Source of the DNA: a virus
Lineage: Duplodnaviria > Heunggongvirae > Uroviricota > Caudoviricetes
IMG/VR virus record: IMGVR_UViG_3300026966_000012
DNA: 64,000 nucleotides
Direction: 5' to 3' (one strand)
Under the pieces are notes generated by a model. That model ran no database searches. It saw only the letters and a list, made by a program, of their open reading frames with translations, and had not been told where the DNA came from. Positions 1,670 to 16,610 of the stretch are shown here, piece after piece. How positions within the stretch are numbered: the stretch's first letter is position 1; each line of letters opens with the position of its first letter. Made by a program: the position numbers and the translations under genes.

Positions 1670-1781
1670 CGTGCGCTGGCGGGGCCAGGAGTTCGGCGAC
1701 GGCCAGTTCATCGTCTGGGAGGGTGACCCGAACACGTCGAAGGCGTACGTGGCCGGGACGCCAGTCCCGAACGAGCCCTGA
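1659..1781 (+). CDS. small hypothetical protein (40 aa)
   Basis: Untracked ORF MSGNVRWRGQEFGDGQFIVWEGDP...; ends exactly at the conserved terminator motif GCTGTTCCGCTTTTGCGCC. Confidence 0.3.
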   Translation: MSGNVRWRGQEFGDGQFIVWEGDPNTSKAYVAGTPVPNEP

Positions 1782-1812
1782 GCTGTTCCGCTTTTGCGCC
1801 GCGCCCCGCCGC
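1781..1812 (+). terminator. conserved cassette terminator motif (T-tract in a GC context)
   Basis: CCGCTTTTGCGCCGCGCCCCGCCG; one of at least 13 copies. Confidence 0.45.
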
Positions 1813-1993
1813 TCGCCGACCCTGTCGTGTTTTCCTGTCGCCCCCTCGCGCGGCGTGGTGCGGCAACCCGGTGCCCTTGCGATGTCTCGGGTTTACCAGC
1901 AGTATCAAGTTATTAACATATCTTTATACTCGCTCCTCTCTTAGGTTAGGATAGGCACTGGGGAAACCCGGTGGCCATCTGGAGTGAAATCGA

Positions 1994-3658
1994 ATGGCAA
2001 GCAGTGACAACGACGTGGAGTACAGCACGGGACAGATCGGCGTCGACGAGGAGCGTATCATCGACGAGCTGATCTTCAGCCAGGCGGAGGGCATCGTCGA
2101 CGGCATCCGCGAGCTGGCGCAAAACGGCGTCGACGCACCCGGCTCGACGAAGGTCGAGATCAACGTGACCCCGGAGCGGACGGTCGTGGTCGACGACGGA
2201 GACGGGATGGACCTGAGCGACGAGTCGGTCCGGGAGTTCCTGACGAACCTGGGCCAGTCGACGAAGATCGACGATGAGGAGACGATTGGCCAGTTCGGCA
2301 TCGGCTTCGGTCAGGCGCTGGCGGTCGGGAAAGTGATAGTGCACAGCCAGGACTCGAAGGTCGAGTTCGACGCGAAGAACTGGTTCCGCGACTACCGGCT
2401 GTACGAGGCCGAGGAGCACTTCGACGGCACGAAAGTGACGATCGAGCACTACGAGGACGAGGTGCCCGAGGCGGGCGCGAGTGAGTGGTCCGACCACCTC
2501 GCCGACATCCGCACCCGGTTCCAGTACATGGAGCTGGTCAAGGGCGTTGAGGTGTGGCTGAACGACGAGCAAGTATCCGGATACGACCCGGCTGAGGACG
2601 ATGAGAACGCCACCGTCTACGACTCGGAACTGGCGTACATGGTCCTGAAGCACGAGAGTTACGACTGGATAACGGTGTACTCGGCGGGCCTGAAAGTCAC
2701 GGACGTCCGCGGCCACGGCATCGGGGGCACCGTGATCACGAAGCGCAACCTCGAGCTGAACACGGCGCGGAACAGCATCCGGTCTGGGTGCGAGGTCTGG
2801 CCCGAGGTCGAGGCCGAGATCGAGGAGGCACGTGTCGAGCTCCTGGACGCCGTCTCTGATTCGAAGCTGACGAACAGTGGTCGCGCGGCCGTGGGCCGCC
2901 TGGCCGCCCAGGGACACGAGGGGTTCGAGGACCGCGAAGTGTTCAAGCTGGCGAACGGTGAGATGACCACCCTCGAGACGATCCAGAGCCGAGACAGCAT
3001 CATGTTCGCTGACCAGACGGACAAGGCCGGGGGCAAGCTGGCTGACCACGGGAAGACCGTCCTGATGCGCAGCGATGGCGCGGTTCAGGCGATTCGGGAA
3101 GCGGTGAACCTCGGTCAGCTGAGCATCCCGGAGACGAAAGACGTCCAGGCGTCGGCGGCCGCGATGGGCATCGCGAACGGCTACGAGATCCTCGAGCCCG
3201 AGGAGTTCCACAGCAAGCCCCTGGCGATGGCCCGCATCCTGCGGGAGAAGATGGAGCAGTACAGCCCCTACGCGCTGGACCGGGAGATCGTGGCCGGAGC
3301 GGATAGCGGGGCCAACGCGTGGACGAAGCCGGACCCGTCGACCCTGAACCCGGTGGAGACGGCGGCGATCGCCGACTCTGAGTTCGAGTCGTTCGTCGCG
3401 ATCACGGACACCGCCTACAGCCAGTTGGCGAGCGAGGTCCTCGTGCTCGAGCTGTGGCGCATCCTGGCTCACGAGTTCGCCCACACGGAGGATTCGACGG
3501 GTGAGCCGTCCCACGGGTCGGGCTTCGCGATGCGCTTCCGCAAGATCCTCGACAAGACCCAGCCGGCGGCCGTCGAGCTCCTGAACGAGATTCGCCAGGA
3601 TGGTGTCACGGCAACGTTCGAGCGATACGACCACGGCGTCCCACACGCCCGCGCCTAA
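1994..3658 (+). CDS. GHKL-family ATPase (HATPase_c) with a C-terminal HExxH motif
   Basis: N-box ELAQNGVDA, G1 VDDGDGM, G2 GQFGIGFGQA; C-terminal ILAHEFAH; hairpin and CTGGAGTGAAATCGA leader before the ATG. Confidence 0.7.
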   Translation: MASSDNDVEYSTGQIGVDEERIIDELIFSQAEGIVDGIRELAQNGVDAPGSTKVEINVTPERTVVVDDGDGMDLSDESVREFLTNLGQSTKIDDEETIGQFGIGFGQALAVGKVIVHSQDSKVEFDAKNWFRDYRLYEAEEHFDGTKVTIEHYEDEVPEAGASEWSDHLADIRTRFQYMELVKGVEVWLNDEQVSGYDPAEDDENATVYDSELAYMVLKHESYDWITVYSAGLKVTDVRGHGIGGTVITKRNLELNTARNSIRSGCEVWPEVEAEIEEARVELLDAVSDSKLTNSGRAAVGRLAAQGHEGFEDREVFKLANGEMTTLETIQSRDSIMFADQTDKAGGKLADHGKTVLMRSDGAVQAIREAVNLGQLSIPETKDVQASAAAMGIANGYEILEPEEFHSKPLAMARILREKMEQYSPYALDREIVAGADSGANAWTKPDPSTLNPVETAAIADSEFESFVAITDTAYSQLASEVLVLELWRILAHEFAHTEDSTGEPSHGSGFAMRFRKILDKTQPAAVELLNEIRQDGVTATFERYDHGVPHARA

Positions 3659-3940
3659 GCGGGCCGTGGCGCGGCAACCCGGCGTCGGACCGGCGTGATG
3701 CTGCGGATCGAATCCGCCCGACGTCCTGGCGGCCTTCGCTACTGTCAAGTGAAGTGACCGCCTACACCCGCCTGGATGGGTCGGAGCCGTTTGTGGTAGG
3801 CTCATAGGCGGTGCGCCCGACCCGTCCCACTCCAGGTGGCCACGGCGTTTGCGATCGGGCTGGCTCCCTCGGGAGCTAAGTGGTCGCGACCGCGGGGTAT
3901 CGCTCCCCGTGTCACCTTTCGTACTGATTGCTCTGATACC

Positions 3941-3977
3941 GTGTACGTACGTACAGACGCGTGTGTACGTACATACA
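3941..3977. repeat. alternating purine/pyrimidine (GTACGTACA) palindromic element
   Basis: gtgtacgtacgtacagacgcgtgtgtacgtacataca; family of 6 copies. Confidence 0.5.
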
Positions 3978-4076
3978 GCCTTTCGGAATCCTGACTTGTC
4001 AGAACCCTTTATTACCGTATCCTGAGAAGGATTACATGGACCTCGAGAAAGCCGAGGCCAGCTGGAGTGACCAGAG

Positions 4077-4388
4077 ATGACAGATACAGCACGACTTGTC
4101 GTGAATGGCTATGTGGAACCGAGCGAGCGAGATACCCGAATTGTGTCGATCCTGGGGAGTCTGGCCGGCGTCCCGGACGGCCACCAGTTCGACTATCGCG
4201 GGATGACGATCGAAAAGCGCGTGACGACCGAGCGAGCGCGGCGCGAACCCGAGATCGCTGTCTACGACCCTGACGGCGAGTACGTCGACCAGTTCCAACC
4301 GCTCCTGTTCTCGTCGTACGAGATCGTGGAGATGCTCGACGAGATGCGAGCCTACTGGGTCGAGGAGAGTCGCGCCACGGCACTGTGA
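4077..4388 (+). CDS. hypothetical protein
   Basis: 103 aa; module leader CCTCGAGAAAGCCGAGG + CCAGCTGGAGTGACCAGAG before the ATG. Confidence 0.55.
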   Translation: MTDTARLVVNGYVEPSERDTRIVSILGSLAGVPDGHQFDYRGMTIEKRVTTERARREPEIAVYDPDGEYVDQFQPLLFSSYEIVEMLDEMRAYWVEESRATAL

Positions 4389-4468
4389 TCGTGGCCGCGA
4401 CAGCGGTCGCAGTCGTGGTCGTCGGCCTGTGGCTGTTCTACGCCCTGGTCGTCTACCTCGAGTTGTGA
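4385..4468 (+). CDS. tiny hydrophobic peptide (27 aa, predicted single TM)
   Basis: GTG start overlapping the upstream stop (GTGA); VIVAATAVAVVVVGLWLFYALVVYLEL. Confidence 0.3.
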   Translation: MIVAATAVAVVVVGLWLFYALVVYLEL

Positions 4469-4486
4469 CCGAAAACTGGTATTTAC
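4469..4486 (+). promoter_or_regulatory. CGAAAACTGGTATWTA promoter motif, copy 1
   Basis: Same motif found upstream of the protease, sheath and TMP genes. Confidence 0.4.
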
Positions 4487-4520
4487 CGCGTGGGGCCTAC
4501 CGTGACATGGAGTACCAGAG

Positions 4521-4841
4521 ATGCCCCGACCGATCGAACGGATGGGTTGTGTTGCCGACCGACTGAGCGACGAGTGGGAGCTCGATGACATCGTGATCGA
4601 GCCGTCGGCGACCGTGACAGCAATCTACCGTCACGTATCCGGGGCGTACGTCATGTGGTCGGCCGACCCGGGACACACGGTACAGTTGTGGGAGGCCGAC
4701 GGATCGGTCGAGACGTGGCTCGATGACGACGAGTTCGCTGACCTGGATTCGGCGACCGAAACTGTCCAGACCTGCGTGGAAGTCATCGAACATGCGACCA
4801 ACCGCGCCCTACCACCAGCAGCGTCGACCCCGCGCCCGTAA
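4521..4841 (+). CDS. hypothetical protein
   Basis: 106-aa ORF, high GC3. Confidence 0.5.
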   Translation: MPRPIERMGCVADRLSDEWELDDIVIEPSATVTAIYRHVSGAYVMWSADPGHTVQLWEADGSVETWLDDDEFADLDSATETVQTCVEVIEHATNRALPPAASTPRP

Positions 4842-5016
4842 CGTTCCGCTTTTCCGCACCGCCTGCGCCAACCTGTCGACTTCCCGATTCAGTCTGACCT
4901 TGCTACGTTGTGTGATTACGGGCAAACACCTCAGATATACATATATTAATATTCACTCCACCCTTAGGTAGAAGTAGGCCAGGAAAACTGGCCCACCCGA
5001 ACGGAGATAGAGAAAG

Positions 5017-5166
5017 ATGCGATACAGAGTCTACGGTACGCACAGTGGCAACGAGTTTCAGGCACCTGTCGACGCAGTCGATGCGAGTGACGCGGTCGAC
5101 GAGTTCCTCGAGTCGGTCGAGGACCCGACCGAGTTCAGCGACGTCGAGGCCGAGGTCTGGGGGTAG
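5017..5166 (+). CDS. small acidic protein (49 aa)
   Basis: Untracked ORF after the module hairpin GGCCAGGAAAACTGGCC + CACCCGAACGGAG. Confidence 0.4.
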   Translation: MRYRVYGTHSGNEFQAPVDAVDASDAVDEFLESVEDPTEFSDVEAEVWG

Positions 5167-5169
5167 CCG

Positions 5170-5340
5170 ATGTCTGGCGAACCCCACACGGGCCCGATCG
5201 ACGCACACGTGTGCGAGCTCGAACCGCTCGATGGCGACGAGTTCGCGACCGTCCACAGCAAGGGCCAGTGCACGATCTGCGGGACCGTGACGACGCCGGC
5301 CCGGGGCGTGAAGAACGCGAAGCGACAGCGGATGTGGTAG
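5170..5340 (+). CDS. small zinc-ribbon-like protein (56 aa)
   Basis: Untracked ORF MSGEPHTGPIDAHVCELEPLDGDEFATVHSKGQCTICG... Confidence 0.35.
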   Translation: MSGEPHTGPIDAHVCELEPLDGDEFATVHSKGQCTICGTVTTPARGVKNAKRQRMW

Positions 5341-5342
5341 CG

Positions 5343-5651
5343 ATGGAGACAGAGAACGTCGCGATCGTCTCGCTGGAGGCGGCTGAAGTTGCCCGACGCG
5401 AGTTGGACATCCTGATTGAACAGACTGGCGGCCCGAACGCCGGGATCGATGAGTCGTGCTCGCCGATGGCCCTCGCGCGCCAACGCATCGAGCGCCTGGA
5501 AGGCGAAGGGATAGACCCGTTCACCGTGGCGACTGTGCTGCAAGTCATGTACGGCGTCGCGGAGGAGCGTGGTGTCGAGATCAGTAGCGCCGACCCGTTG
5601 CAGGACGACGTCTTCCGGGCACGAAGCGAGTTCGAGTCGGATCTCGAGTAG
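5343..5651 (+). CDS. hypothetical protein
   Basis: Internal ATG (METENVAIV) of track ORF 5211..5651, directly after the upstream stop. Confidence 0.45.
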   Translation: METENVAIVSLEAAEVARRELDILIEQTGGPNAGIDESCSPMALARQRIERLEGEGIDPFTVATVLQVMYGVAEERGVEISSADPLQDDVFRARSEFESDLE

Positions 5652-6059
5652 TCTCGACCCTGCTGCGGTTTGCATCGTTCCTGGTGGTAGTGAGCGGTTC
5701 GATTCCGTGACGATGCCTGGCCCCCGAGCCCTCAGACGATACGTTGATAGGTTCGCGGGGCCTATGCTCACGCGGCATCCGTTAGTGATGCCGTTCCGTT
5801 CGGGTGGGATAGCACGCGTCGGGCTGTCTCGGCAAGGGCAACCACGTCAGTCGAGATCAGAGGCTCGTGCAAACCCGTTGCCCGGGGCATTTGTCCCCGG
5901 GCGCCCTTTGGTACCGCCTCGAGCGAGAGCTCTTGTTCTCTGACATCGCGTATCCGCGCCCGAGCGCGCAAACCCGGTGTGATCATGCTACGATCCTGTT
6001 CTATCAGCAATATTATCTGACAAAGATATTATTATATCAGCTCCAGCCTAAGGTAAAGT

Positions 6060-6200
6060 ATGGCACGAAAAAGCCACTCGAGCGGAGATAGCGTGAACAA
6101 GCAGCGGTACCGCGGCAACGAGTCGACCGCCGACTTCGACCTGGGCGACGCACTGAGCCAGATCTCGGAGAGCCGCGAGGAGGACGAGGACGATGAGTGA
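6060..6200 (+). CDS. small acidic protein (46 aa), N-terminus MARKSHSSGD
   Basis: ATG inside the module hairpin TGGCACGAAAAAGCCA + CTCGAGCGGAG; untracked. Confidence 0.45.
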   Translation: MARKSHSSGDSVNKQRYRGNESTADFDLGDALSQISESREEDEDDE

Positions 6201-6402
6201 GCGCATGCACCGGGAGCCGAGCAAGTTCTCGGCTGACGAACTGTCAATCGGCGACGAGATCGTGGTCGCTGGCCTCGTCCACGAGGTCATGTCGGTGGGA
6301 GAGCCCGGGAAGCAGTGCCTCGTGCGGACGGACCGGGGCGCGTTCTCGAAAGACGGCCTGAGTAGCGGGATCGACGACGGCTCCGTGGAGGTGCGCGACT
6401 GA
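6193..6402 (+). CDS. hypothetical protein
   Basis: 69 aa; ATGAGTGA overlap. Confidence 0.45.
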   Translation: MSERMHREPSKFSADELSIGDEIVVAGLVHEVMSVGEPGKQCLVRTDRGAFSKDGLSSGIDDGSVEVRD

Positions 6403-6602
6403 TGCCGATGGCATGGGGCCTCGACGAGTCGTGCCCAGACTGTGGCGAGGACGAACTGATCTGGTGGACGAAAGACGAGACTGAACGTGTCGACGAGGTG
6501 AAGGTGGACTGCACCGCCTGCGGGATGGCGTTCCCGAAGGAGATCGTCGAGAAGACTGACGACACTCCTCGCGAGGAGATTGCACGGGGGATCGTCGCAT
6601 GA
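6402..6602 (+). CDS. zinc-ribbon protein
   Basis: CPDCG...CTACG. Confidence 0.5.
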   Translation: MPMAWGLDESCPDCGEDELIWWTKDETERVDEVKVDCTACGMAFPKEIVEKTDDTPREEIARGIVA

Positions 6603-7539: not shown

Positions 7540-7607
7540 CCGCGCTCCGCTTTTGCGCACCGCCCCGTCGAATGAGTTATCAGTTTTGCGGTAGTATCGC
7601 CGAATAG

Positions 7608-8120: not shown

Positions 8121-8135
8121 TGGGTTACGTCTGGT

Positions 8136-9575: not shown

Positions 9576-9689
9576 AGCGGCGCCGACTGTCGGTTTTACG
9601 CCGTGCCCCGTCGACCATGCGACGTTCAGCGGAAGTCGACAATATCAGCTGTCATACATATATTCATATTCGCTCCCGACCAAGATAAG

Positions 9690-10353: not shown

Positions 10354-10394
10354 ACGGGGCTGACGCCCGGTTTCGCGCGCCGCCCCGCCGCCCG

Positions 10395-10700
10395 ACGACC
10401 CCTGTTTCCACTCCGTCTGGTCCAACGCGGAATAGTAGAGGAAATTATTATTTGCAGAGATCGAGCCCTGAATACAACCCGCCTCAGCGAGGTTCATGGG
10501 CGCTACACGTCGGCGAGTTTTGTGAGGCATGGCTCCTACCCCTTCGAGTTGGCTCACGGCATTCCGAGCGTCGTGTGGACGGTGTCTCCGCGAGGTTCGT
10601 GGGCATCTCAGGAAATGCCCCCTGATGATACGAGAACCCCTGTTTCCCTTCCGCGTGCCGCGTCACGCGAATCCGGCACGCGCCATGCGACGTCGACGTC
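10395..10700. ncRNA. copy B of a conserved roughly 250-300 nt non-coding element (candidate ncRNA or regulatory repeat)
   Basis: Aligns with 1..335 and 14085..14335; core CTCCTACCC..GCTCACGGC, GCRTCTCAGG, CCCCTGTTTCC. Confidence 0.35.
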
Positions 10701-10724
10701 CATCCAGCAGTAACAGCCGTCTTA

Positions 10725-10737
10725 CATATCTATATAC
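10725..10737 (+). promoter_or_regulatory. TATA box of a cassette promoter
   Basis: catatctatatac. Confidence 0.45.
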
Positions 10738-10760
10738 CTGCACCACTCTTAGGATAAGAT

Positions 10761-11138
10761 ATGGGAACCAAAAACCCATCCGAAGCGGAACAGAGCGACG
10801 AGATCCTCCCGGCCCTCGACCACCGCGGACTGACGGGCCACGGCAAGGCCCGACTCGAGGAGAGCGAGCTCGTGACCCCGTACCTCGTGCGGACCCTCCA
10901 GGAGGCGGACCCGGCCATCCTCCGGGCCCTCTCGCAAGTGGCTGACGCCGCCGCCTCGGCCCGGTACGGCCCCATCCAGGCCCAGCTGGCCAAGGACGAA
11001 AGCGCGAGCCGCGAGATCCAGCAGCAGTACTGGAACCAGCTGGACGACGTGAAGGGCCTGTCCCTCCTCTGCACGGAAATCCTGCGCGACGAGCGTGACG
11101 GCGTGCCCAGCGAGGACGACCCGAGACTCGGCTTCTAA
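10761..11138 (+). CDS. hypothetical protein, N-terminus MGTKNPSEAE
   Basis: ATG in hairpin TGGGAACCAAAAACCCA. Confidence 0.55.
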   Translation: MGTKNPSEAEQSDEILPALDHRGLTGHGKARLEESELVTPYLVRTLQEADPAILRALSQVADAAASARYGPIQAQLAKDESASREIQQQYWNQLDDVKGLSLLCTEILRDERDGVPSEDDPRLGF

Positions 11139-11504
11139 CGCCGACCAGCGCACTACCACCAGCAGCGGCTGGCCTGCGCACCGGTTTTCCGCCGTGCCCC
11201 GTCGCCCACGTGACCCTCGTTTCCGCTCCGCCCGCGACTGTCTCGTGCGATCGTCGCGCCCTGCTTGCGTACGTGTCCCCCCACTGTTACGCTCGTCACG
11301 CCTGCGTTCGCGGCCTGTGCTATCCGCGTCCGACCCCTGTTTCATCTCCGCGTGCCAAGGCGCGGCAACCCGGTGGCGTCCCCGTCAGCAAACGGGCCCT
11401 TTCTGCAAGCAATCCGACACTGAAATCTATAAAACGCTGTCTCAAGCCCTCTACACGAGGATTTAGACCAGAACCTTTATATCAAATCAAGTTCAAGAAG
11501 AAGT

Positions 11505-11744: not shown

Positions 11745-11746
11745 AG

Positions 11747-11908
11747 ATGCGCCCCGACGTGATCGAGTGGACGGGCGAGGCGCACCTGGTGACGACGGGC
11801 TGTGACGAGTGCGGGCGATCGTTCTCGATCGACGAGGACAGCGTGCGGTGGGCGGACGAGCGCGGACGACCCGTGTTCTGCGACTCGTGCGGGTCGGGAG
11901 GGCTGTGA
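11747..11908 (+). CDS. zinc-ribbon protein (53 aa)
   Basis: CDECG...CDSCG; in frame with track ORF 11210..11908. Confidence 0.45.
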   Translation: MRPDVIEWTGEAHLVTTGCDECGRSFSIDEDSVRWADERGRPVFCDSCGSGGL

Positions 11909-11909
11909 G

Positions 11910-12017
11910 ATGCGGCGGCTGCGGACGGCGCTGCTGGCGGCGAGCGTCGTGACGCGGATCGTCGCGTTCCCGGCGGTGTTGGCTGTCGCGCGGGCCCGAG
12001 CGAGGGTCGTGCGGTGA
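11910..12017 (+). CDS. small hydrophobic peptide (35 aa)
   Basis: MRRLRTALLAASVVTRIVAFPAVLAVA... Confidence 0.3.
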   Translation: MRRLRTALLAASVVTRIVAFPAVLAVARARARVVR

Positions 12018-12229
12018 GTTCCGTGCAGCGGCGGTTGTTCGAGGAGTCGGCGGTCGGGGCGGTCTGGGTCGAAGACAGTGACGGGGGTCGCGCGCTGGTG
12101 ACCGTCGAGCGGCACCCGACGGTGTCGATGGGACGTCTGCTCGAGGCGCTCCGGGGACGTGACGACGTCGAGACGGTGCGCCAGACGACAGCGACGCACG
12201 TCGAGGCGATCGTGCGAGGTGACGCCTGA
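12014..12229 (+). CDS. hypothetical protein
   Basis: GTG start overlapping the upstream stop. Confidence 0.4.
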   Translation: MSSVQRRLFEESAVGAVWVEDSDGGRALVTVERHPTVSMGRLLEALRGRDDVETVRQTTATHVEAIVRGDA

Positions 12230-12309
12230 TGCTGGTGGTACTGCTCGTTGCCCTGCTCGTGGTGCTGTTCGGCGTCTGGCTCGTGCTGGCCGCGGCTACC
12301 GCGTTCTAA
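12229..12309 (+). CDS. tiny hydrophobic peptide (26 aa)
   Basis: MLVVLLVALLVVLFGVWLVLAAATAF; ATGA overlap. Confidence 0.3.
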   Translation: MLVVLLVALLVVLFGVWLVLAAATAF

Positions 12310-12406
12310 CCTCGCGCGACGCGCCGCGGCAACCCGGTGAATCGGTCTAAGGGCTGTTACTACCGCATCACTGATATTTAATACCTCATGCGTCGAAGAT
12401 GAAGAT

Positions 12407-12868
12407 ATGGGACCAAAATCCCACCCAACGGGCGATGAAGCGAGCGATGAAGCGAGCGACGACGTCGTTGTCGTCGATGAGTGTGCGACGTGGGTCGGGC
12501 GACGCGAAGACGTGAGTGAAGACGAAGCCGTCGCCGCGATGAGCGATGTCGAGCGGGCCGTGAAGCGGGTCGCAGACGAGCGATGGGTCGACGTCGTGCG
12601 GGTCGCGATGTGCGACGACGAAGTGCGGGCCGTCGTGAAGATGAAGCAGTGTGAAGGGCCGGGTGCGGGCGCGACGACGTGGGCGAGCGCGTTGTGCGAC
12701 GTCGAGTTGGGCGACGGGCGCGAGCGCGAAGTCGATGTGAGCGTGACGTTGCCGGGCCGTGAAGGGATGTCGGGCGATGTGATGGGCGAAGTCGAAGTCG
12801 ACGGGCGCGAGTGGGAAGTGCGACGTGAAGTGTGGGTCGACGAAGACGGGCGCGAAGTCGGGCCGTAG
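12407..12868 (+). CDS. hypothetical acidic protein, N-terminus MGPKSHPTGD
   Basis: ATG in hairpin TGGGACCAAAATCCCA. Confidence 0.5.
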   Translation: MGPKSHPTGDEASDEASDDVVVVDECATWVGRREDVSEDEAVAAMSDVERAVKRVADERWVDVVRVAMCDDEVRAVVKMKQCEGPGAGATTWASALCDVELGDGREREVDVSVTLPGREGMSGDVMGEVEVDGREWEVRREVWVDEDGREVGP

Positions 12869-12995
12869 CGCGAGCGTGGGCGACGTCGCCGCCGGGCGAT
12901 GTCGTCGCGTGTCGGTTTCGCGCCGCGCCACCGCCCAACCAGCAGTTACAGCCGGAACACGTGCCTATATATCAGTATCATGAGAAGTAAGAAGT

Positions 12996-13334
12996 ATGGA
13001 ACCGAAAAGTTCCCACCGAGCGGAGTACAGTGAGCCGCCCATCGAGCTGGCGAATGCCGTGCGACGCGGCGAGCACTACCTGCTGGGCGACGTTGGAGAG
13101 TTCGTGGTCGACGAGATCGCTGTTGGGTACCCAGTCGAGGAGCGAGACGGCGTGGTCGCCCCGAACCGCGAGGCGTTCGTCACGCGTATCGAGTTTGTGG
13201 CGCCGGGCGAGTGTATCGTGATGGGTCTTGCCGAGCTCGAGGACCGCATCGATCGAACCGATGTGTTGCCCCTGACCGTGCGCGAACGCGATGAGGAGCT
13301 GCACGCGGAGTGGGAGAGCCACGGGCTGCTGTAG
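12996..13334 (+). CDS. hypothetical protein, N-terminus MEPKSSHRAE
   Basis: ATG in hairpin TGGAACCGAAAAGTTCCCA + CCGAGCGGAG. Confidence 0.55.
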   Translation: MEPKSSHRAEYSEPPIELANAVRRGEHYLLGDVGEFVVDEIAVGYPVEERDGVVAPNREAFVTRIEFVAPGECIVMGLAELEDRIDRTDVLPLTVRERDEELHAEWESHGLL

Positions 13335-13344
13335 TCGAGGCGCA

Positions 13345-13378
13345 CCGCTGCGGTCCGCTTTTGCGCCGTGCCCCGCCG
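13345..13378 (+). terminator. conserved cassette terminator motif
   Basis: GGTCCGCTTTTGCGCCGTGCCCCGCCGCTCG. Confidence 0.45.
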
Positions 13379-13438
13379 CTCGTCGCTGCTATTACCGGTA
13401 CGCTGACACTTATACTTGCACGAGTGGTAGGTAGAAGT

Positions 13439-13630
13439 ATGGTCAGAAACGACCACCCGAACGGAGAGCTGAGCGAGTACCAGAAGGCGAACGAGCTGAG
13501 CGACGACGAGTTGCGACAGCGCGTGATCGAGCTGCGGAGCGAGCCCGCGCCGCTGGTGGGAGTGGACAGCGAGTTGGAAGCCGCCGAGGAGGTCGCGCGA
13601 GACCGCGGGCTCGGGCTGGGGATGAGCTGA
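13439..13630 (+). CDS. hypothetical protein (63 aa), N-terminus MVRNDHPNGE
   Basis: ATG in hairpin TGGTCAGAAACGACCA + CCCGAACGGAG; internal ATG (index 43) of track ORF 13310..13630. Confidence 0.45.
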   Translation: MVRNDHPNGELSEYQKANELSDDELRQRVIELRSEPAPLVGVDSELEAAEEVARDRGLGLGMS

Positions 13631-13776
13631 TGCTGGGCCACAGCGGGCCGTTCTGTCCGGACTGCGGTGCAGAGGGACTGAGCGATGAGTGGGTCGAGGG
13701 CGGGCGACGGATGGTGGCGCGACAGTGCCCAGAGCCGAGATGTAGCTCGTACTGGGAGTACGAGGTGGGCTGCTGA
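13630..13776 (+). CDS. zinc-ribbon protein (48 aa)
   Basis: CPDCG...CPEPRC. Confidence 0.4.
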   Translation: MLGHSGPFCPDCGAEGLSDEWVEGGRRMVARQCPEPRCSSYWEYEVGC

Positions 13777-14006
13777 TGCAGCGACGGATCGACGCGACCG
13801 TGGTGATCGGGAGCGACCGAAAGACGGTGTCGGTGTGGGTCGACGAAGACGCGTCCGATGCGACCCGCGAGGCCGCGGTCGAGGAGATTGTCGGCGACGT
13901 CCGGTCGTGGGAGAGTGAGCCGGTCGAGCTCGAGGGATGGGGCGAGACGGGCTGGGTCCAGGGCGATGGCCGGGACGCGATGCCCCGCCGCGAGCCCGGC
14001 TGGTAG
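13776..14006 (+). CDS. hypothetical protein
   Basis: 76 aa; ATGA overlap. Confidence 0.45.
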   Translation: MQRRIDATVVIGSDRKTVSVWVDEDASDATREAAVEEIVGDVRSWESEPVELEGWGETGWVQGDGRDAMPRREPGW

Positions 14007-14084
14007 CCCCGCCTCGCGATTGTGGCCAGTGTCGGTTTTGCGCCGTGCCCCGCCGACCCCTGCTTCCGGTCCAACGACGCTGTC

Positions 14085-14335
14085 CAGCGGATTGAGCCGA
14101 CTGTGCGCCCGCATCTGACTGTCTCCGGAGGGTCCAAGGGCGTCTCACGTCGGCGTGTTTCTGACGCTGTGACTCCTACCCTGTAGGGCCTGCTCACGGC
14201 GTTTTGACGCCTGTGCGGACACTGTCTCCCGGCGTTCTGTGAGCGTCTCAGGCTGTCGCTTGCCGTGATGTCGTACGCATGTCATGACCCCTGTTTCCAC
14301 TCCGCGCCACGTCGCGTCAAACCAGCAGTATCAGC
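14085..14335. ncRNA. copy C of the conserved non-coding element
   Basis: cacgtcggcgtgtttctgacg..ctcctaccctgtagggcctgctcacggc..gcgtctcagg..cccctgtttccactccgcg. Confidence 0.35.
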
Positions 14336-14342
14336 CGCCAAA

Positions 14343-14355
14343 CATATCTATATAC
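14343..14355 (+). promoter_or_regulatory. TATA box of a cassette promoter
   Basis: catatctatatac. Confidence 0.45.
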
Positions 14356-14378
14356 TTGTACCCTGAGAAGCATAAGAT

Positions 14379-14621
14379 ATGGGAAAGAAAAGTCCCACCC
14401 GAGCAGAACTGGCACAGAAACGCCGCGGCATCGTCAGCGCGCTCCCGTTCACGTGCCCGACCGAGCGAGGCGACCAGATCGTGGTGCACGTGCAAGACCG
14501 CAAGCTGGAGAAGTTCGAGCGCGTCGCGAAGCAGCTCGAGCTCGAAATCGTCGACCGCGAAGACGGCGGGAGTTCGCAGCAGGGCCGGCGCCTGCGCATG
14601 ACGCTGGAGACGGCCTCGTGA
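14379..14621 (+). CDS. hypothetical protein, N-terminus MGKKSPTRAE
   Basis: ATG in hairpin TGGGAAAGAAAAGTCCCA. Confidence 0.5.
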   Translation: MGKKSPTRAELAQKRRGIVSALPFTCPTERGDQIVVHVQDRKLEKFERVAKQLELEIVDREDGGSSQQGRRLRMTLETAS

Positions 14622-14761
14622 GCCGCGTCGTCCGGGTCCCGCGTCTCGGCGACCGCCGTAACCCGTGCACCGTCATGCACGAGACGCACACGGGTCGCCT
14701 GAAAGTGCGCGACCGCTACGGCTACGCCCTGCGGGTCGACCCCGAGGAGGTCGTCGAGTAG
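14618..14761 (+). CDS. small hypothetical protein (GTG start)
   Basis: GTGA overlap; same frame as track ORF 14453..14761. Confidence 0.3.
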   Translation: MSRVVRVPRLGDRRNPCTVMHETHTGRLKVRDRYGYALRVDPEEVVE

Positions 14762-14771
14762 CGCAACCGCC

Positions 14772-15293
14772 ATGTATCGCGACTACGAGATTCGATTCGA
14801 GCCGATGGACTGGCCGACGCCCGTGTACGTCAGCGAGGACGAACCCAGCCCCGACGCGGTCGACCCGATCGAGAACTGGAACGTGAAGCCGGTCGGTGGG
14901 CTGTGGACAGCACCGCTGCTCGATGACAGCGACGGCCTCGCGACCGCCTGGACAGAGTGGATGAACGCCGAGCAGTACGTCCCGTATGGCGAGAACGCTC
15001 GCCTGTACGCCCTCGAACCGCGTGACGACGTCGACCTGTTCGTGGTCGACAGCCTCGATGCCGCGAAGGAGCTGTACGCGTTCGGCGACAGCGGACCGGC
15101 CGAGGTGCTCTCGAGCGCGGTCGACTACGAGGCGATCGTCGACGAGTACGACGGCGTCCGCCTGACGCATGAGGGCCAGATCGACACGCGCCTGTCGTGG
15201 GAGGCGAATCTGAACGGCTGGGATTGTGCGTCGACGGTGTGGTTCGACTGGTGCTTCGAGTCGGTCGAAGACCTGGGCCCGCTGGAGTTGTAG
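14772..15293 (+). CDS. hypothetical protein
   Basis: 173 aa, high GC3. Confidence 0.55.
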   Translation: MYRDYEIRFEPMDWPTPVYVSEDEPSPDAVDPIENWNVKPVGGLWTAPLLDDSDGLATAWTEWMNAEQYVPYGENARLYALEPRDDVDLFVVDSLDAAKELYAFGDSGPAEVLSSAVDYEAIVDEYDGVRLTHEGQIDTRLSWEANLNGWDCASTVWFDWCFESVEDLGPLEL

Positions 15294-15295
15294 CC

Positions 15296-15330
15296 GGGCC
15301 CGCTTTTGCGCCGTGCCCCGCCGTCAGCCG
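15296..15330 (+). terminator. conserved cassette terminator motif
   Basis: CCCGCTTTTGCGCCGTGCCCCGCCG. Confidence 0.45.
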
Positions 15331-15421
15331 ACAGCAAACGGGCCTGTTCTGTGGACCGTTCCGTCCTGTTTTCGCGGATTCGGGCGTCTCAGGCCGTCTA
15401 CGCGCGGAATGGTGTGGGAAA

Positions 15422-15430
15422 ACTATATAC
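15422..15430 (+). promoter_or_regulatory. TATA box of a cassette promoter
   Basis: actatatac. Confidence 0.4.
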
Positions 15431-15453
15431 CTGTAAGTGTCCAAGTATAAGAT

Positions 15454-15651
15454 ATGGGACAAAAAATCCCAACCCGACGGAGAGCGACGCCGGCGAACCT
15501 CGAGCAGAGACTCGCCGAGATCGAGCGAGAGCTGCGGGCGATGAGCCGGGGCGACGTCGACGCAGGGACGTGCCGCTGGCTGCTGGAGGAGAAAGCCGAG
15601 CTGCGAGCCGAGCGCAACCGCCTGTTCGCGGCGACGGGGCGGTGGTCGTGA
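15454..15651 (+). CDS. hypothetical coiled-coil protein, N-terminus MGQKIPTRRR
   Basis: ATG in hairpin TGGGACAAAAAATCCCA. Confidence 0.5.
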   Translation: MGQKIPTRRRATPANLEQRLAEIERELRAMSRGDVDAGTCRWLLEEKAELRAERNRLFAATGRWS

Positions 15652-15800
15652 TGAGCGACGACGAGTTCCCGGGACCCGCGCCGATGGGCGCACGACCGCC
15701 GGACGTCGTCGAGCGGGCGAAGGAGATCGCGTACGGCGAGGTGTCGGCGACGTCCGAAGAAGTCGCCTGGGCGCTGGAGGTGATCGCGGATGAGCGATGA
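15651..15800 (+). CDS. small hypothetical protein
   Basis: Internal ATG of track ORF 15306..15800; TGATG overlap. Confidence 0.4.
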   Translation: MSDDEFPGPAPMGARPPDVVERAKEIAYGEVSATSEEVAWALEVIADER

Positions 15801-16029
15801 GTTGCTGGGCGTGATCGAGGTCGAGAGCAGCAAGCCGTACGTGAAAGACGTGTACGACGTGGTCCGCGTCGATGGGCCCGATCTCGAGACGGTCTGCGTC
15901 GAAGCTGGCGAGCGCCACGAGCTGGGCGACCGCGTCCGCTGGCCGAACGAGCTCGTGACGGTGATGTCCCGGGCGACGCTGTACGACCCCGACGGCAACG
16001 AGATCGAGATGGCTGAGCTCGGCCGATAG
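15790..16029 (+). CDS. hypothetical protein
   Basis: 79 aa. Confidence 0.45.
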   Translation: MSDELLGVIEVESSKPYVKDVYDVVRVDGPDLETVCVEAGERHELGDRVRWPNELVTVMSRATLYDPDGNEIEMAELGR

Positions 16030-16082
16030 GGCCCCGGCTCCCGCCTCGGCCTACGCGCGCCAAGGCGCCGCAACCCGGCAAC

Positions 16083-16120
16083 GCGTGTGGGTACGTACCG
16101 ACGTGTGTGTATGTACAGAC
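16083..16120. repeat. GTACGTACA alternating purine/pyrimidine element (degenerate copy)
   Basis: gcgtgtgggtacgtaccgacgtgtgtgtatgtacagacg. Confidence 0.4.
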
Positions 16121-16305
16121 GCCGACCCCGAACCCCGATTCGCCCGACCGGCTGCACTACCACCAGCAGCGACCGGCTCAGCCGACAAAAAACGGGCCCA
16201 CATCACGACGGTTTTCACGCGCGGAATCCAAAACGAACGCCTCAGGGCTCCTACGCGCGGAATGTGACCAGAAACTATATACCTGTCAAAGTACAAGTAT
16301 GTAAT

Positions 16306-16542
16306 ATGGAATCAAAAATTCCATCCCGACGGAGCAGCGAAGCGTGCGAGAACGGTGTCGAGAACGCGATCAGTGAGCGAGAACGTCGCCTCGTGCGGGA
16401 CGTGACGGCCATCGTCAACGAGCTCGAGACGATCTCGCAGCACGACGAGATGCTGAGCGGGCGAATGACGAAGCAGTGGGCCGAGGGGCTGTGCGACGCA
16501 GTCGACGAGTTCGCCGAGTCGGACCCGCACGCGCAGGAGTAG
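16306..16542 (+). CDS. hypothetical protein, N-terminus MESKIPSRRS
   Basis: ATG in hairpin TGGAATCAAAAATTCCA. Confidence 0.5.
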   Translation: MESKIPSRRSSEACENGVENAISERERRLVRDVTAIVNELETISQHDEMLSGRMTKQWAEGLCDAVDEFAESDPHAQE

Positions 16543-16544
16543 GG

Positions 16545-16610
16545 CGGGCGAGCGGGCTTTTTTGTGGGCGCTGATGTCGCGTGCCGATTTTCCGCCGTGC
16601 CCCGCGCCGC
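16545..16610 (+). terminator. T6 tract plus conserved terminator motif closing the cassette array
   Basis: gggcttttttgtggg, then GTGCCGATTTTCCGCCGTGCCCCGCGCCGCG. Confidence 0.5.

What the first reader, a model, noticed from the sequence alone, without database searches (positions are those of the whole stretch)
1781..16610. Conserved terminator-like motif after each cassette (CCGCTTTTGCGCCGYGCCCCGCCG)
Thirteen or more copies are present. Approximate starts are 35, 1781, 4841, 7541, 9190, 9585, 10365, 11175, 12905, 13345, 14025, 15296 and 16575, each immediately after a stop codon. Archaeal termination uses oligo-T tracts; here a T3-5 tract sits in a fixed GC-rich context, suggesting a sequence-specific terminator or a factor-binding site rather than a generic T-run. 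The last copy is preceded by a strong T6 tract (16558-16563).
Basis: seen in the sequence. Interest (0 to 1): 0.55.

Follow-up and report, generated by a model that had tools for sequence, protein, structure and literature searches.

The report
Virus-specific terminator-like box after genes
A 20-base signal built around a short run of T's sits just after the last gene of 13 small gene cassettes in a large virus or plasmid of salt-loving archaea, is kept in two related elements, and most likely marks where transcription of each cassette stops, possibly through sequence-specific recognition not yet described in archaea.

Summary
There are 13 copies of (tt)CCG-n-TTT-y-s-CGC-nnn-GCCC(C). All are on the + strand, all lie in window 27-16607, and each starts 4-43 nt after a stop codon; shuffles give 0. 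"After each cassette" is too strong: 7 of about 20 cassette ends lack the motif.

The window is a new haloarchaeal myovirus-like element. Two relatives carry the same motif in the same region: an IMG/VR contig (11 copies) and the 149-kb "plasmid unnamed3" of Halobaculum halophilum Gai3-2 (14 copies). All 38 copies are co-oriented with the genes.

At orthologous sites the 20-nt core is an island of conservation: 80% three-way identity against 24-46% in the flanks. One relative shows a concerted change, GCCCC to GCCCG, in 10 of 11 copies. The motif has no RNA structure and no Rfam match. It is absent after late genes, which end in plain T5C runs. T-runs are avoided inside the cassette genes.

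Best reading: this is the terminator/insulator module of a modular intergenic system (terminator box, promoter, 5' hairpin leader) in a hyperplastic early region, comparable to T4 PeSLs and the HGTV-1 motif. Whether RNA polymerase or a dedicated factor reads the conserved flanks is unresolved. This is a new variant of a known kind, and it is testable in a cultured host.

The parts
27..50 (+). Motif copy 1: CCGCTTTCGCGCGCCGCCCCGCGC, 13 nt after the TAG at 11-13
   Evidence: (PWM 29.2). Orthologous copies are rel 8110 and plasmid 75917.
1788..1811 (+). Motif copy 2: exact consensus, 6 nt after the TGA at 1779-1781
   Evidence: (31.5). Orthologues are rel 9832 and plasmid 77525.
4846..4869 (+). 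Motif copy 3 (degenerate box): CCGCTTTTCCGCACCGCCTGCGCC, 4 nt after the TAA at 4839-4841
   Evidence: D12; 24.9. Orthologues are rel 12841 and plasmid 80538.
7547..7570 (+). Motif copy 4, 7 nt after the TGA at 7537-7539. It is followed after only 41 nt by the ATG of the HTH/HNH-like gene 7608-8120.
   Evidence: (29.9). Orthologues are rel 15466 and plasmid 83508.
9202..9225 (+). Motif copy 5 (TTTC form), 14 nt after the TAG at 9185-9187
   Evidence: (27.6)
9590..9613 (+). Motif copy 6: TCGGTTTTACGCCGTGCCCCGTCG, 14 nt after the TAG at 9573-9575
   Evidence: (24.3)
10367..10390 (+). Motif copy 7 (TTTC form), 13 nt after the TAG at 10351-10353
   Evidence: (29.6)
11181..11204 (+). Motif copy 8, 42 nt after the TAA at 11136-11138. 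The orthologous gene in the relative is also followed by a copy (rel 17859).
   Evidence: (27.8)
12912..12935 (+). Motif copy 9 (degenerate: GCCACC in place of GCCCC), 43 nt after the TAG at 12866-12868
   Evidence: D12; 23.9
13355..13378 (+). Motif copy 10: exact consensus, 20 nt after the TAG at 13332-13334
   Evidence: (30.8)
14032..14055 (+). Motif copy 11, 25 nt after the TAG at 14004-14006
   Evidence: (28.3)
15300..15323 (+). Motif copy 12: exact consensus, 6 nt after the TAG at 15291-15293. It lies inside an ~855-nt segment (two ORFs, this motif, a promoter and a leader; about window 14613-15481) that is missing from the relative.
   Evidence: (30.8)
16584..16607 (+). Motif copy 13, the last one, 41 nt after the TAG at 16540-16542
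   Evidence: (26.7)
16558..16563 (+). Plain T6 run between the last cassette's stop codon and motif copy 13. This is a generic oligo-T terminator-like tract.
10399..10415 (+). Second T-containing module, CCCCTGTTTCCnCTCCG. It lies 8-15 nt downstream of several motif copies and also bounds a ~230-nt repeat. Other copies: 290-306, 9243-9259 (weak), 10637-10653, 11214-11230, 11334-11350, 14057-14073, 14288-14304.
   Evidence: (10 hits against 0.86 expected)
11360..11375 (+). Module GCGCGGCAACCCGGYG, upstream of the promoters. Other copies: 314-329, 1858-1873, 3669-3684, 5964-5979, 8334-8349, 8678-8693, 9897-9912, 12324-12339, 16065-16080. In three cases it follows a stop codon directly, with no T motif.
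   Evidence: (12 hits against 2.9 expected)
10704..10791 (+). Representative promoter-leader module: CAGCAGTAaCAGCCG..ACATATCTATATAC (BRE/TATA-like), then about 25 nt, then a hairpin with an A-rich loop at the ATG, then CCGAAGCGGA. There are 18-19 such modules between 340 and 16335. Perfect hairpins: 385-402, 4977-4993, 8423-8438, 8773-8788, 9691-9707, 9993-10009, 10761-10779, 11505-11523, 12408-12423, 12998-13013, 13440-13455, 14380-14397, 15455-15471, 16306-16324. Imperfect hairpins: about 1956, 4039, 6061, 9364.
   Evidence: (families D4, D6, D7, D9, D11, D13), and sequence read

Best explanation
The motif is the transcription-unit boundary (terminator/insulator) module of a modular intergenic regulatory system in the early, hyperplastic region of a large haloarchaeal myovirus-like element.

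Proposed mechanism. RNA polymerase transcribing a short cassette of ORFan genes meets CCG-n-TTT(T/C)-s-CGC-nnn-GCCC(C) a few bases after the last stop codon. The short oligo-T tract on the non-template strand is the release signal, as in ordinary archaeal terminators. The conserved bases on both sides make this weak T3-4 tract effective. They may do so directly, through the RNA:DNA hybrid and the downstream duplex held by the polymerase, or through a factor that recognises them. Each cassette is thereby insulated from the next cassette's own TATA promoter and hairpin leader.

Shown here: the motif's existence, strand, position, conservation, distribution and lack of RNA structure, and the avoidance of T-runs inside the genes.

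Inferred: that transcripts end at the motif, and what reads the box.
For: 1. There are 13 copies against 0 expected, all on the + strand.

2. The motif is anchored to the upstream stop codon (4-43 nt). The distance to the next start codon varies from 41 to 530 nt (Irwin-Hall P = 2e-8). In the independently annotated Halobaculum plasmid, copies lie 3-43 nt after PGAP-annotated CDS ends for 9 of the 14 copies.

3. All 38 of 38 copies in three genomes are co-oriented with the genes.

4. Every copy in the window is followed by a promoter-like module. None lies between overlapping genes inside a cassette.

5. T-runs are counter-selected on the sense strand of the cassette genes. There are 3 T3 runs against 12.9 +/- 3.1 in codon-order shuffles. 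There are 0 T4 runs inside genes, compared with 17 A4 runs in the same 40 genes. All 16 T>=4 runs are intergenic, and 8 of them lie in the motif.

6. At four orthologous sites the 20-nt core is 80% identical across all three genomes, against 46% upstream and 24% downstream (P = 3e-13). This holds even where the flanking genes are not homologous.

7. The logo over 38 copies shows near-invariant blocks (CCG, TTT, CGC, GCCC) separated by freely varying positions. That is the signature of selection on specific bases rather than of recent duplication.

8. The T stretch followed by C or G matches the intergenic termination signal mapped in Haloferax volcanii (T stretch, termination at a C, T5C gives 95% termination; PMC7237163).
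Against: - No transcript 3'-end data exist.
- The T tract is short: T3-T4 here, and in two copies of the relative it is broken to CTTCTG. That is weaker than the T5C shown to terminate efficiently in Haloferax.
- Seven cassette ends have no copy and no T-run, so the cassettes do not strictly need it.
- Late operons in the same genome end in plain T5C runs without the box (after TerL at 25857 and after RNR at 50253). The box is therefore not needed for termination in general.
- A polymerase-intrinsic signal would not obviously require conserved bases 8-11 nt downstream of the T-run.
- The concerted GCCCC-to-GCCCG change in one lineage points to a co-evolving reader or to gene conversion.
Confidence: 0.55

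Rival explanations
1. Roadblock or 'stoperator'-like site. The 20-nt box is the asymmetric binding site of a virus-encoded DNA-binding protein, for example the repressor of the plasmid-prophage state. Bound downstream of the T tract, the protein stalls RNA polymerase on a weak U-rich hybrid and so silences or attenuates the early cassettes conditionally. Termination would then be regulated rather than constitutive.
For: - The site is asymmetric and multi-copy (11-14 per genome), always co-oriented with transcription and intergenic. Stoperators of Cluster A mycobacteriophages have the same properties (20-30 sites oriented with transcription, most not promoter-associated, motif variants tracking the repressor; PMC6550527, PMC9283540).
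- Conservation extends 15 nt downstream of the T-run, with variable spacer positions between conserved blocks.
- There is a lineage-specific concerted change at position 20, GCCCC to GCCCG, in 10 of 11 copies of one relative against 1 of 27 in the other two genomes (P = 2.5e-7).
- The motif is confined to one genome region and absent from late operons, which use plain T5C.
- The related element is maintained as a circular ParA/ParB-encoding 'plasmid', so a silencing system is expected.
- Exact motif variants gave no haloarchaeal hit in the genome collection, so no sign of a host-wide signal was seen.
Against: - No candidate binding protein was identified.
- No copy overlaps a promoter, whereas L5-type systems have operator copies in the early lytic promoter.
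- Stop-codon proximity and the invariant T-run are not required by a pure roadblock.
- Concerted change can also come from gene conversion among copies.
Confidence: 0.25
2. RNA-level 3'-UTR element. Transcription continues past the box, for example to the second T-containing module CCCCTGTTTCC or beyond. The unstructured C-rich RNA CCGnUUUysCGCnnnGCCCC is then a processing, stability or factor-loading site (for aCPSF1/FttA, Lsm or a viral RNA-binding protein) that defines the mature 3' end.
For: - Strand specificity and stop-codon proximity fit an RNA element equally well.
- A second T-containing module follows several copies 8-15 nt downstream, so the box could be transcribed.
- The region is not structured (z-scores from -1.0 to +2.4), which keeps it accessible.
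- U-tracts cooperate with aCPSF1 in archaeal termination (PMC8716108, PMC7515710).
Against: - No conserved structure, no covariation and no Rfam match.
- Only 7-8 of 13 copies have the second module.
- There is no direct evidence for processing.
- General factors would not explain why late operons lack the box.
Confidence: 0.12
3. Mainly an evolutionary joint. The motif persists because cassettes spread by duplication and by homologous recombination between repeated intergenic modules (PeSL-like shuffling). Gene conversion homogenises the copies, and any terminator activity is incidental to the T-run.
For: - The region is hyperplastic. The window and the relative are about 78% identical and syntenic, but between 8.1 and 16.5 kb whole cassettes are present or absent. 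Homology blocks start or end at module edges: at the 3' edge of the leader hairpin at 9698 and 15482, at the promoter edge at 14321, and at stop codons at 8107 and 11136.
- An ~855-nt indel comprises two ORFs, the motif, a promoter and a leader.
- At plasmid sites 75917 and 77525 the motif joins non-homologous flanks.
- The concerted change in one lineage is what gene conversion would produce.
- PeSLs have this role in T4-type phages (PMC2839356, PMC4122927).
Against: - A 20-nt identity is short for efficient homologous recombination.
- The pattern of invariant positions interrupted by freely varying ones across 38 copies indicates base-specific selection, not homogenisation of a block.
- The strict position after stop codons and the avoidance of T-runs in genes indicate a transcriptional role.
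- This explanation is compatible with, rather than exclusive of, the best one.
Confidence: 0.06
4. Upstream regulatory site of the next promoter, that is, an activator or repressor site acting on initiation of the downstream cassette.
For: Every copy in the window is followed by a promoter-like module.
Against: - The distance to the next TATA or ATG varies from 41 to 530 nt, while the distance to the upstream stop codon is 4-43 nt.
- Seven promoter modules have no motif upstream.
- In three intergenic regions a ~230-nt repeat is inserted between the motif and the promoter.
Confidence: 0.03

Closest known systems
Archaeal oligo-T terminators (for example the Haloferax volcanii intergenic T-stretch/T5C signal, PMC7237163, and the aCPSF1/FttA-assisted U-tract terminators, PMC7515710 and PMC8716108)
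   Same: A T-run on the non-template strand shortly after the stop codon, followed by C or G. No upstream hairpin is needed. T-runs are avoided inside genes.
   Different: The T-run here is only T3-T4. It is embedded in about 16 further conserved bases (CCG upstream; CGC-nnn-GCCC(C) downstream). The motif is specific to one virus family and to one genome region. Plain T5C runs end the late operons of the same genome.
PeSL (promoter-early stem-loop) composite terminator/promoter cassettes of T4-type phages (PMC2839356, PMC4122927)
   Same: Repeated regulatory sequences lie between small ORFan genes in hyperplastic early regions. They are associated with indels and replacements between close relatives, and they combine a terminator function with an early promoter, a ribosome-binding site and a start codon.
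   Different: The terminator part here is not a stem-loop. The terminator and promoter are separable modules at variable distance, not one fixed unit. The promoters are archaeal TATA/BRE promoters, and the hairpin sits at the 5' end or start codon of the downstream gene rather than upstream of the promoter.
HGTV-1 (Halogranum tailed virus 1) conserved intergenic motif, described as a TATA-box-like region plus inverted repeat and likened to PeSLs (PMC3950731, citing Sencilo et al. 2013)
   Same: A large (144 kb) haloarchaeal myovirus with an arm of small genes, each separated by a conserved repeat of about 100-130 nt. In the sequence, the repeat begins just after the stop codon with ..GGCGGAACCTTTTTATAG.., followed by an inverted repeat and TATA-like boxes.
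   Different: There is no sequence similarity to the motif here. In HGTV-1 the T-run, inverted repeat and TATA box form one rigid unit, and the T5 run may itself belong to a TATA-like box. TerL is only about 25% identical, so this is a different virus lineage.
Halovirus HF2 class I and class II intergenic repeats (PMC8707807)
   Same: Repeated intergenic sequences in a haloarchaeal myovirus. Their sequence and position are conserved among relatives, and they are proposed to be read by virus-encoded factors for temporal control.
   Different: The HF2 repeats are promoters (BRE/TATA, shown by reporter assays). The motif here has no AT-rich promoter element and sits at gene 3' ends. The HF2-like counterpart in this window is the separate TATA/hairpin module.
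Stoperators of Cluster A mycobacteriophages (L5, Bxb1; PMC6550527, PMC9283540)
   Same: An asymmetric, multi-copy site, always oriented with transcription, mostly intergenic and not in promoters. The consensus differs slightly between related genomes.
   Different: Stoperators are bacterial, 13 bp long, bound by a known monomeric repressor, spread over the whole genome, and include operator copies in promoters. Here no binder is known, the copies are confined to about 16 kb, none lies in a promoter, and a T-run is part of the site.
Eukaryotic Pol I terminators (a T-rich release element upstream of a Reb1/TTF-I-bound box). This comparison rests on my own knowledge and was not checked here.
   Same: A T-rich tract lies immediately upstream of a conserved, orientation-dependent box. 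The architecture suggests a pause or roadblock combined with release at a weak hybrid.
   Different: A different domain of life and a different polymerase. Factor binding is only hypothetical here.

Membership tests
Archaeal oligo-T (intrinsic or aCPSF1-assisted) terminator | A run of T's (typically 4-5 or more) on the non-template strand | tested here: inconclusive
   T4 in 9 copies and T3 in 4 copies of the window. In the relative the run is T5 in 4 copies and broken to CTTCTG in 2. This is at the weak end of known signals (PMC7237163).
Archaeal oligo-T (intrinsic or aCPSF1-assisted) terminator | Located downstream of the stop codon of the last gene of a transcription unit, on the sense strand | tested here: met
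   4-43 nt after stop codons. All 38 of 38 copies are co-oriented, and each copy in the window is followed by a promoter module.
Archaeal oligo-T (intrinsic or aCPSF1-assisted) terminator | Transcript 3' ends map at or within the T tract | not testable with these tools
   No RNA data are available. Term-seq or 3'-RACE is needed.
Archaeal oligo-T (intrinsic or aCPSF1-assisted) terminator | Generic signal: no specific flanking sequence is required | tested here: not met
   The flanks CCG, CGC and GCCC are near-invariant in 38 copies and conserved at orthologous sites. Late operons of the same genome use plain T5C.
Bacterial-type intrinsic terminator | A GC-rich hairpin immediately followed by a U-run | tested here: not met
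   The consensus scan found no + strand hairpin-plus-T site at any copy. Fold z-scores range from -1.0 to +2.4 with no common structure.
PeSL-type composite regulatory cassette (T4-type phages) | A stem-loop terminator directly upstream of an early promoter, forming one conserved unit | tested here: not met
   There is no stem-loop at the motif. The spacing between motif and promoter varies from about 54 to 362 nt, and repeats are inserted in between.
PeSL-type composite regulatory cassette (T4-type phages) | Many copies between small ORFan genes in a hyperplastic region, with indels and replacements between relatives bounded by the elements | tested here: met
   The ten cassette proteins tested have no significant Pfam family; one has a weak, sub-threshold hit. 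Cassette gain and loss against the relative have breakpoints at module edges. The motif joins non-homologous flanks in the plasmid.
Stoperator (Cluster A mycobacteriophage repressor sites) | An asymmetric, multi-copy site oriented with transcription, mostly outside promoters | tested here: met
   11-14 copies per genome, all 38 co-oriented, none in a promoter module.
Stoperator (Cluster A mycobacteriophage repressor sites) | Bound by the phage immunity repressor, with operator copies in the early lytic promoter | not testable with these tools
   No binder was identified. No copy was seen overlapping a TATA module in the window. The lysogeny/partition region lies outside the window.
HF2-type intergenic repeats | The repeat itself carries BRE/TATA promoter elements | tested here: not met
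   The motif is GC-rich apart from TTT(T) and has no TATA-like element. The promoter-like elements are a separate module.
Known structured RNA family (Rfam) | A match to a curated covariance model | tested here: not met
   0 matches at E <= 1 in window 1-17600.

The most novel reading that the evidence does not exclude
The box is read by a dedicated sequence-specific factor, most plausibly one encoded by the virus/plasmid itself. This factor would convert a weak T3-4 tract into an efficient, orientation-dependent and switchable terminator. It would be an archaeal counterpart of stoperators or of Reb1/TTF-I roadblock terminators, used to keep about a dozen early cassettes silent during plasmid-like carriage and to release them on induction. 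To my knowledge, sequence-specific factor-dependent termination has not been described in Archaea.
Probability: 0.25. Interest if true: 0.8.

Novelty: new variant of a known kind. Interest (0 to 1): 0.5.

Why it matters
Archaeal transcription termination is understood as generic oligo-T signals plus the general factor aCPSF1/FttA. To my knowledge, no sequence-specific terminator or terminator-binding protein is known.

This virus family places a short T-run in a 20-nt context. That context is conserved across genomes with only 66-83% protein identity and changes in a concerted way in one lineage. It is used only in the early cassette region, while plain T5C runs end the late operons. That contrast gives a natural experiment on what flanking sequence contributes to archaeal termination.

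A close relative sits as a 149-kb "plasmid" in a cultured strain, Halobaculum halophilum Gai3-2, so 3'-end mapping, reporter assays and pull-downs are feasible.

The whole modular system (terminator box, promoter, 5' hairpin leader, ORFan cassettes that come and go) extends the PeSL idea of mobile regulatory cassettes to another archaeal virus lineage. It could also supply compact insulators and promoters for haloarchaeal genetics.

Tried and rejected
1. Hairpin terminator. Folding 80-nt windows around 8 copies gave no common structure and z-scores from -1.0 to +2.4. The bacterial-type scan found nothing on the + strand at the copies. The small inverted repeat inside the motif (CGC-TTTT-GCG or CGG-TTTT-CCG) does not covary consistently across copies (my reading). 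Rejected.

2. Known RNA family. Rfam gave 0 hits at E <= 1.

3. Coding sequence. The variable positions are not spaced with 3-nt periodicity, and the copies lie after stop codons of high-GC3 ORFs. Rejected.

4. Host-wide or widespread element. Exact-variant scans of IMG/VR (0 hits), 185,579 species-representative genomes (62 single hits, all in bacteria) and JGI metagenomes (44 single hits) gave only chance-like singletons. The genome scan also failed to return the Halobaculum plasmid, and the metagenome scan failed to return the window's own contig. Absence in those collections is therefore weak evidence.

5. Distant HATPase homologues as a route to more family members. The Halalkaliarchaeum provirus and two metagenome contigs (L072-L074) are different integrative elements with no motif.

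6. Megablast of the window against INPHARED gave no match.

7. The ~230-nt repeat between motif and promoter as a structured sRNA. RNAalifold found essentially no consensus structure.

8. Complementarity between the motif tail (CCGTCG) and the leader (CGACGG), or between the motif and the GCGCGGCAACC module. Only 6-8 nt matches of GC-rich words were seen and they do not covary, so I treated them as chance. There was no formal test.

9. Homing-endonuclease target. An HNH-like gene follows copy 7547 in all three genomes. A site present 13 times in the element's own genome would be self-destructive, so this was not pursued.

Full report
1. THE OBSERVATION

The literal consensus CCGCTTTTGCGCCGYGCCCCGCCG has 3 exact copies and 7 copies at up to 3 mismatches, against 0 in 100 dinucleotide-preserving shuffles. 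Motif starts are 27, 1788, 4846, 7547, 9202, 9590, 10367, 11181, 12912, 13355, 14032, 15300 and 16584. All are on the + strand. Nothing comparable exists in the remaining 47 kb or on the minus strand.

Using ORFs with the high GC3 typical of coding sequence here, each copy starts 4-43 nt (median 13) after a stop codon. The T6 tract at 16558-16563 is real.

Three corrections apply:
- The T tract is T3 (4 copies) or T4 (9 copies), never T5.
- Seven cassette ends (3658, 5651, 8120, 8583, 9806, 12309, 16029) have neither the motif nor any T-run.
- The series begins at 27. The 8 kb upstream of the window, recovered as L006, adds no good copy.

2. WHAT THE WINDOW IS

The window has 58-65% GC and no tRNA genes. 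It encodes a T4-type large terminase, a class II ribonucleotide reductase and a DUF3383 (PF11863) protein. It has no nucleotide match in INPHARED, and its TerL is at most 31% identical to any deposited phage, with 25% to halovirus HGTV-1.

Two relatives were found:
- IMG/VR contig UViG_3300027007_000012 is syntenic, with about 78% nucleotide identity.
- "Plasmid unnamed3" (NZ_CP058532.1, 148,857 bp, circular) of Halobaculum halophilum Gai3-2 has TerL 83% and the HATPase protein 66% identical. That record encodes a tape measure protein, baseplate J, head-tail adaptor, family B DNA polymerase, RNR, ParA and ParB. It is therefore a complete myovirus-like genome kept as, or mis-filed as, a plasmid.

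The window is a member of a new family of large haloarchaeal virus/plasmid elements.

3. THE MOTIF IN THE RELATIVES

The same PWM finds 11 copies in the IMG/VR relative and 14 in the plasmid, all on the gene strand. In the fully sequenced plasmid, 11 of the 14 lie in the homologous cassette region (73.5-90.1 kb). The three outliers are at 26472, 51833 and 65524, and two of them again follow + strand gene ends. With the independent PGAP annotation, nine copies start 3-43 nt after a CDS end.

The logo over 38 copies is (tt)CCG-n-TTT-y-s-CGC-nnn-GCCC(C/G). Thirteen positions are conserved in at least 34 of 38 copies, and they are interrupted by positions that vary freely.

At four orthologous sites the 20-nt core is identical in all three genomes at 64 of 80 columns. 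The figures are 74 of 160 for the preceding 40 nt (mostly coding) and 38 of 160 for the following 40 nt (P = 3e-13). At two of these sites the plasmid's flanking genes are not even homologous, yet the motif is intact.

Position 20 of the motif is C in 12 of 13 window copies and 12 of 14 plasmid copies. It is G in 10 of 11 copies of the IMG/VR relative (P = 2.5e-7). This is a concerted, lineage-specific change across dispersed copies.

4. THE MOTIF IS ONE MODULE OF A LARGER ARCHITECTURE

Repeat analysis and reading of the sequence show that the intergenic regions of 1-16.6 kb are built from four modules:
- M1 is the T motif.
- M2 is CCCCTGTTTCCnCTCCG.
- M3 is GCGCGGCAACCCGGYG.
- M4 is a BRE/TATA-like box (..CAGCAGTATCAGCCG..ACATATCTATATAC), followed after about 25 nt by a hairpin with an A-rich loop that usually contains the ATG, and then CCCGAnCGGAG.

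There are 14 perfect and about 4 imperfect M4 hairpins. Their stems differ in sequence but stay complementary: TGGGA/TCCCA, GGCCAG/CTGGCC, CACCGGT/ACCGGTG, GGAAC/GTTCC, TGGTC/GACCA, ATGGAAT/ATTCCAT.

M1 is always the module nearest the upstream stop codon. Its distance to the next ATG ranges from 41 to 530 nt. In three places a ~230-nt repeat is inserted between M1 and M4. Under uniform placement within the intergenic regions, the observed 5' bias has P = 2e-8. The motif therefore belongs functionally to the upstream gene's 3' end, not to the downstream promoter.

5. EVIDENCE BEARING ON TERMINATION

- There is no hairpin. Eight 80-nt windows fold no better than shuffles (z from -1.0 to +2.4) and share no structure. 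The bacterial-type scan finds nothing at the copies, and Rfam finds nothing.
- T-runs are selected against in the sense strand of the cassette genes. In 40 genes (11.4 kb) there are 3 T3 runs against 12.9 +/- 3.1 after codon-order shuffling (P < 0.001), and no T4 run, compared with 17 A4 runs. All 16 T>=4 runs of the region are intergenic, and half of them are the motif. This is what is expected if even short T-runs affect transcription here.
- In Haloferax volcanii, mapped intergenic termination sites show a T stretch ending at a C, and T5C terminates 95% of transcripts in vivo. The same study also found a downstream DNA motif (AGATC) acting at coding-region sites (PMC7237163). A U-tract cooperating with aCPSF1 is the general archaeal mechanism (PMC7515710, PMC8716108).
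- Elsewhere in the same window, major late genes end in plain T5C runs without the box: after TerL at 25857 and after RNR at 50253.

Taken together, the motif looks like a terminator, but one in which a weak T3-4 tract depends on a specific context. That context is used only in the early cassette region.

6. HYPERPLASTICITY

The ten cassette proteins tested have no significant Pfam family; one has a weak sub-threshold hit. Between 8.1 and 16.5 kb the window and its 78%-identical relative share only some cassettes. Homology blocks begin or end at module edges: at the 3' edge of the leader hairpin (9698, 15482), at the promoter edge (14321) and at stop codons (8107, 11136).

One ~855-nt indel consists of two ORFs, motif copy 15300, a promoter and a leader. 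This is the behaviour described for PeSL composite terminator/promoter elements of T4-type phages (PMC2839356, PMC4122927). It has also been proposed for a TATA-plus-inverted-repeat motif in halovirus HGTV-1 (PMC3950731).

I looked at HGTV-1. Its right arm has a 100-130-nt repeat starting just after stop codons with ..GGCGGAACCTTTTTATAG.., then an inverted repeat and TATA-like boxes. The concept is the same, but the sequence is unrelated and the unit is rigid. HF2's intergenic repeats are promoters (PMC8707807) and correspond to M4, not to M1.

7. MECHANISM AND RIVALS

Best explanation (confidence 0.55): M1 is the terminator/insulator of each early cassette. The T tract is the release signal, and the conserved flanks are needed to make it work.

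What reads the flanks is open. A polymerase-intrinsic effect is possible, through the hybrid upstream and the duplex downstream. Four observations point toward a dedicated reader:
- conservation extends out to +11 after the T-run;
- conserved blocks are separated by variable spacers;
- the motif is restricted to one region;
- the box changed in a concerted way in one lineage.

That leads to the main rival, a roadblock site analogous to mycobacteriophage stoperators (PMC6550527, PMC9283540), at confidence 0.25. An RNA-level 3'-UTR element (0.12), a mere recombination joint (0.06) and an upstream site for the next promoter (0.03) are less likely. The reasons are given under each rival.

8. DISTRIBUTION

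Exact-variant scans of IMG/VR, of one genome per prokaryotic species, and of JGI metagenomes returned only single, chance-like hits, all in bacteria where the organism is named. These scans also missed records known to contain the pattern, so they only weakly argue that the motif is private to this virus family. Distant homologues of the HATPase gene lie in unrelated integrative elements without the motif.

9. VERDICT

It is a new variant of a known kind, namely repeated regulatory cassettes in large tailed viruses combined with archaeal oligo-T termination. The unexcluded reading of factor-dependent, sequence-specific termination would be new for Archaea, and it can be tested in Halobaculum halophilum Gai3-2.

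Noticed in passing
window 340-16335 (for example 10704-10791; hairpins listed in parts): There are 18-19 promoter-leader modules. Each has a TATA-like box followed after about 25 nt by a 5-7 bp hairpin with an A-rich loop that usually contains the start codon (ATGGGACAAAAATCCCA), then CCCGAnCGGAG. The stems covary between copies. In three copies (385, 1956, 4039) the hairpin lies in a 5' UTR about 20-30 nt before a GGAGTGA Shine-Dalgarno-like sequence and the ATG. This looks like a conserved 5'-end RNA or DNA element of unknown function and may be more unusual than the terminator motif.
   Followed up: partly
window 48-310, 10388-10660, 14053-14312; L002 8131-8420, 17126-17400, 19654-19900; plasmid NZ_CP058532.1 about 84745-85010: A ~230-nt repeated element is inserted between the T motif and the next promoter. 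It is bounded on both sides by CCCCTGTTTCCnCTCC and contains AATAGTAGAGGAT..ATTAAATGCAG..GAATACAACCC, which may be its own TATA box. Seven copies occur in three genomes. RNAalifold found no conserved structure. It could be a small gene, an sRNA or a MITE-like insertion.
   Followed up: partly
window 3692-3925 and 5789-5887: These non-coding stretches (low GC3, no plausible ORF) are more conserved with the relative than the flanking genes: 87-94% in translated comparison, against about 78% overall. They are candidate non-coding RNAs or regulatory regions. There is no Rfam hit.
   Followed up: no
window 8138-8240: Five closely spaced copies of GCGTATCCC (one is GCGTTATCCC) lie directly after the HTH/HNH-like gene 7608-8120. 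This looks like an array of binding sites.
   Followed up: no
window 3940-3975, 9838-9872, 16088-16120: Short GTACGTAC-type alternating repeats (gtgtacgtacgtacagacgcgtgtgtacgtacatac and similar) recur in three intergenic regions, near the GCGCGGCAACC module.
   Followed up: no
NZ_CP058532.1 (L007-L009), whole record: The 148,857-bp 'plasmid unnamed3' of Halobaculum halophilum Gai3-2 encodes terminase, tape measure, baseplate J, head-tail adaptor, family B DNA polymerase, RNR, thymidylate synthase, ParA and ParB. It is a complete myovirus-like genome, either a plasmid-prophage or a co-cultured virus, related to the window. PLSDB's predicted 'cmlA5' resistance gene on a 126-nt ORF at 90906-91031 is almost certainly a false positive.
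   Followed up: partly
window 1-13 and 13322-13334: The last 13 nt of the ORF running into the window start (CGGGCTGCTGTAG) are identical to the end of ORF 12996-13334. The cassette upstream of copy 27 and the cassette upstream of copy 13355 therefore probably encode paralogues.
   Followed up: no
window 25857 and 50253: Plain T5C runs follow the TerL and RNR genes 14-21 nt after their stop codons. This is the generic haloarchaeal terminator form, without the conserved box.
   Followed up: partly
L120 (HGTV-1 NC_021328.1, record 128-143.8 kb, minus strand): The HGTV-1 arm of small genes carries a 100-130-nt intergenic repeat..GGCGGAACCTTTTTATAGGGGTTTACTCCTCGTGGCACGAGGAGT..GGTATATAAA..GACTTAATAC. 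It starts right after stop codons. The T5 run at its 5' edge could be a terminator as well as part of the published 'TATA-like' region.
   Followed up: partly
protein P0001 (identical to window 1994-3658): The identical HATPase protein is recorded on contigs up to 320,643 bp, and that of the relative on contigs up to 154,791 bp. The window's element may therefore be larger than the 149-kb plasmid, or may have been assembled as a concatemer or inside a larger replicon.
   Followed up: no
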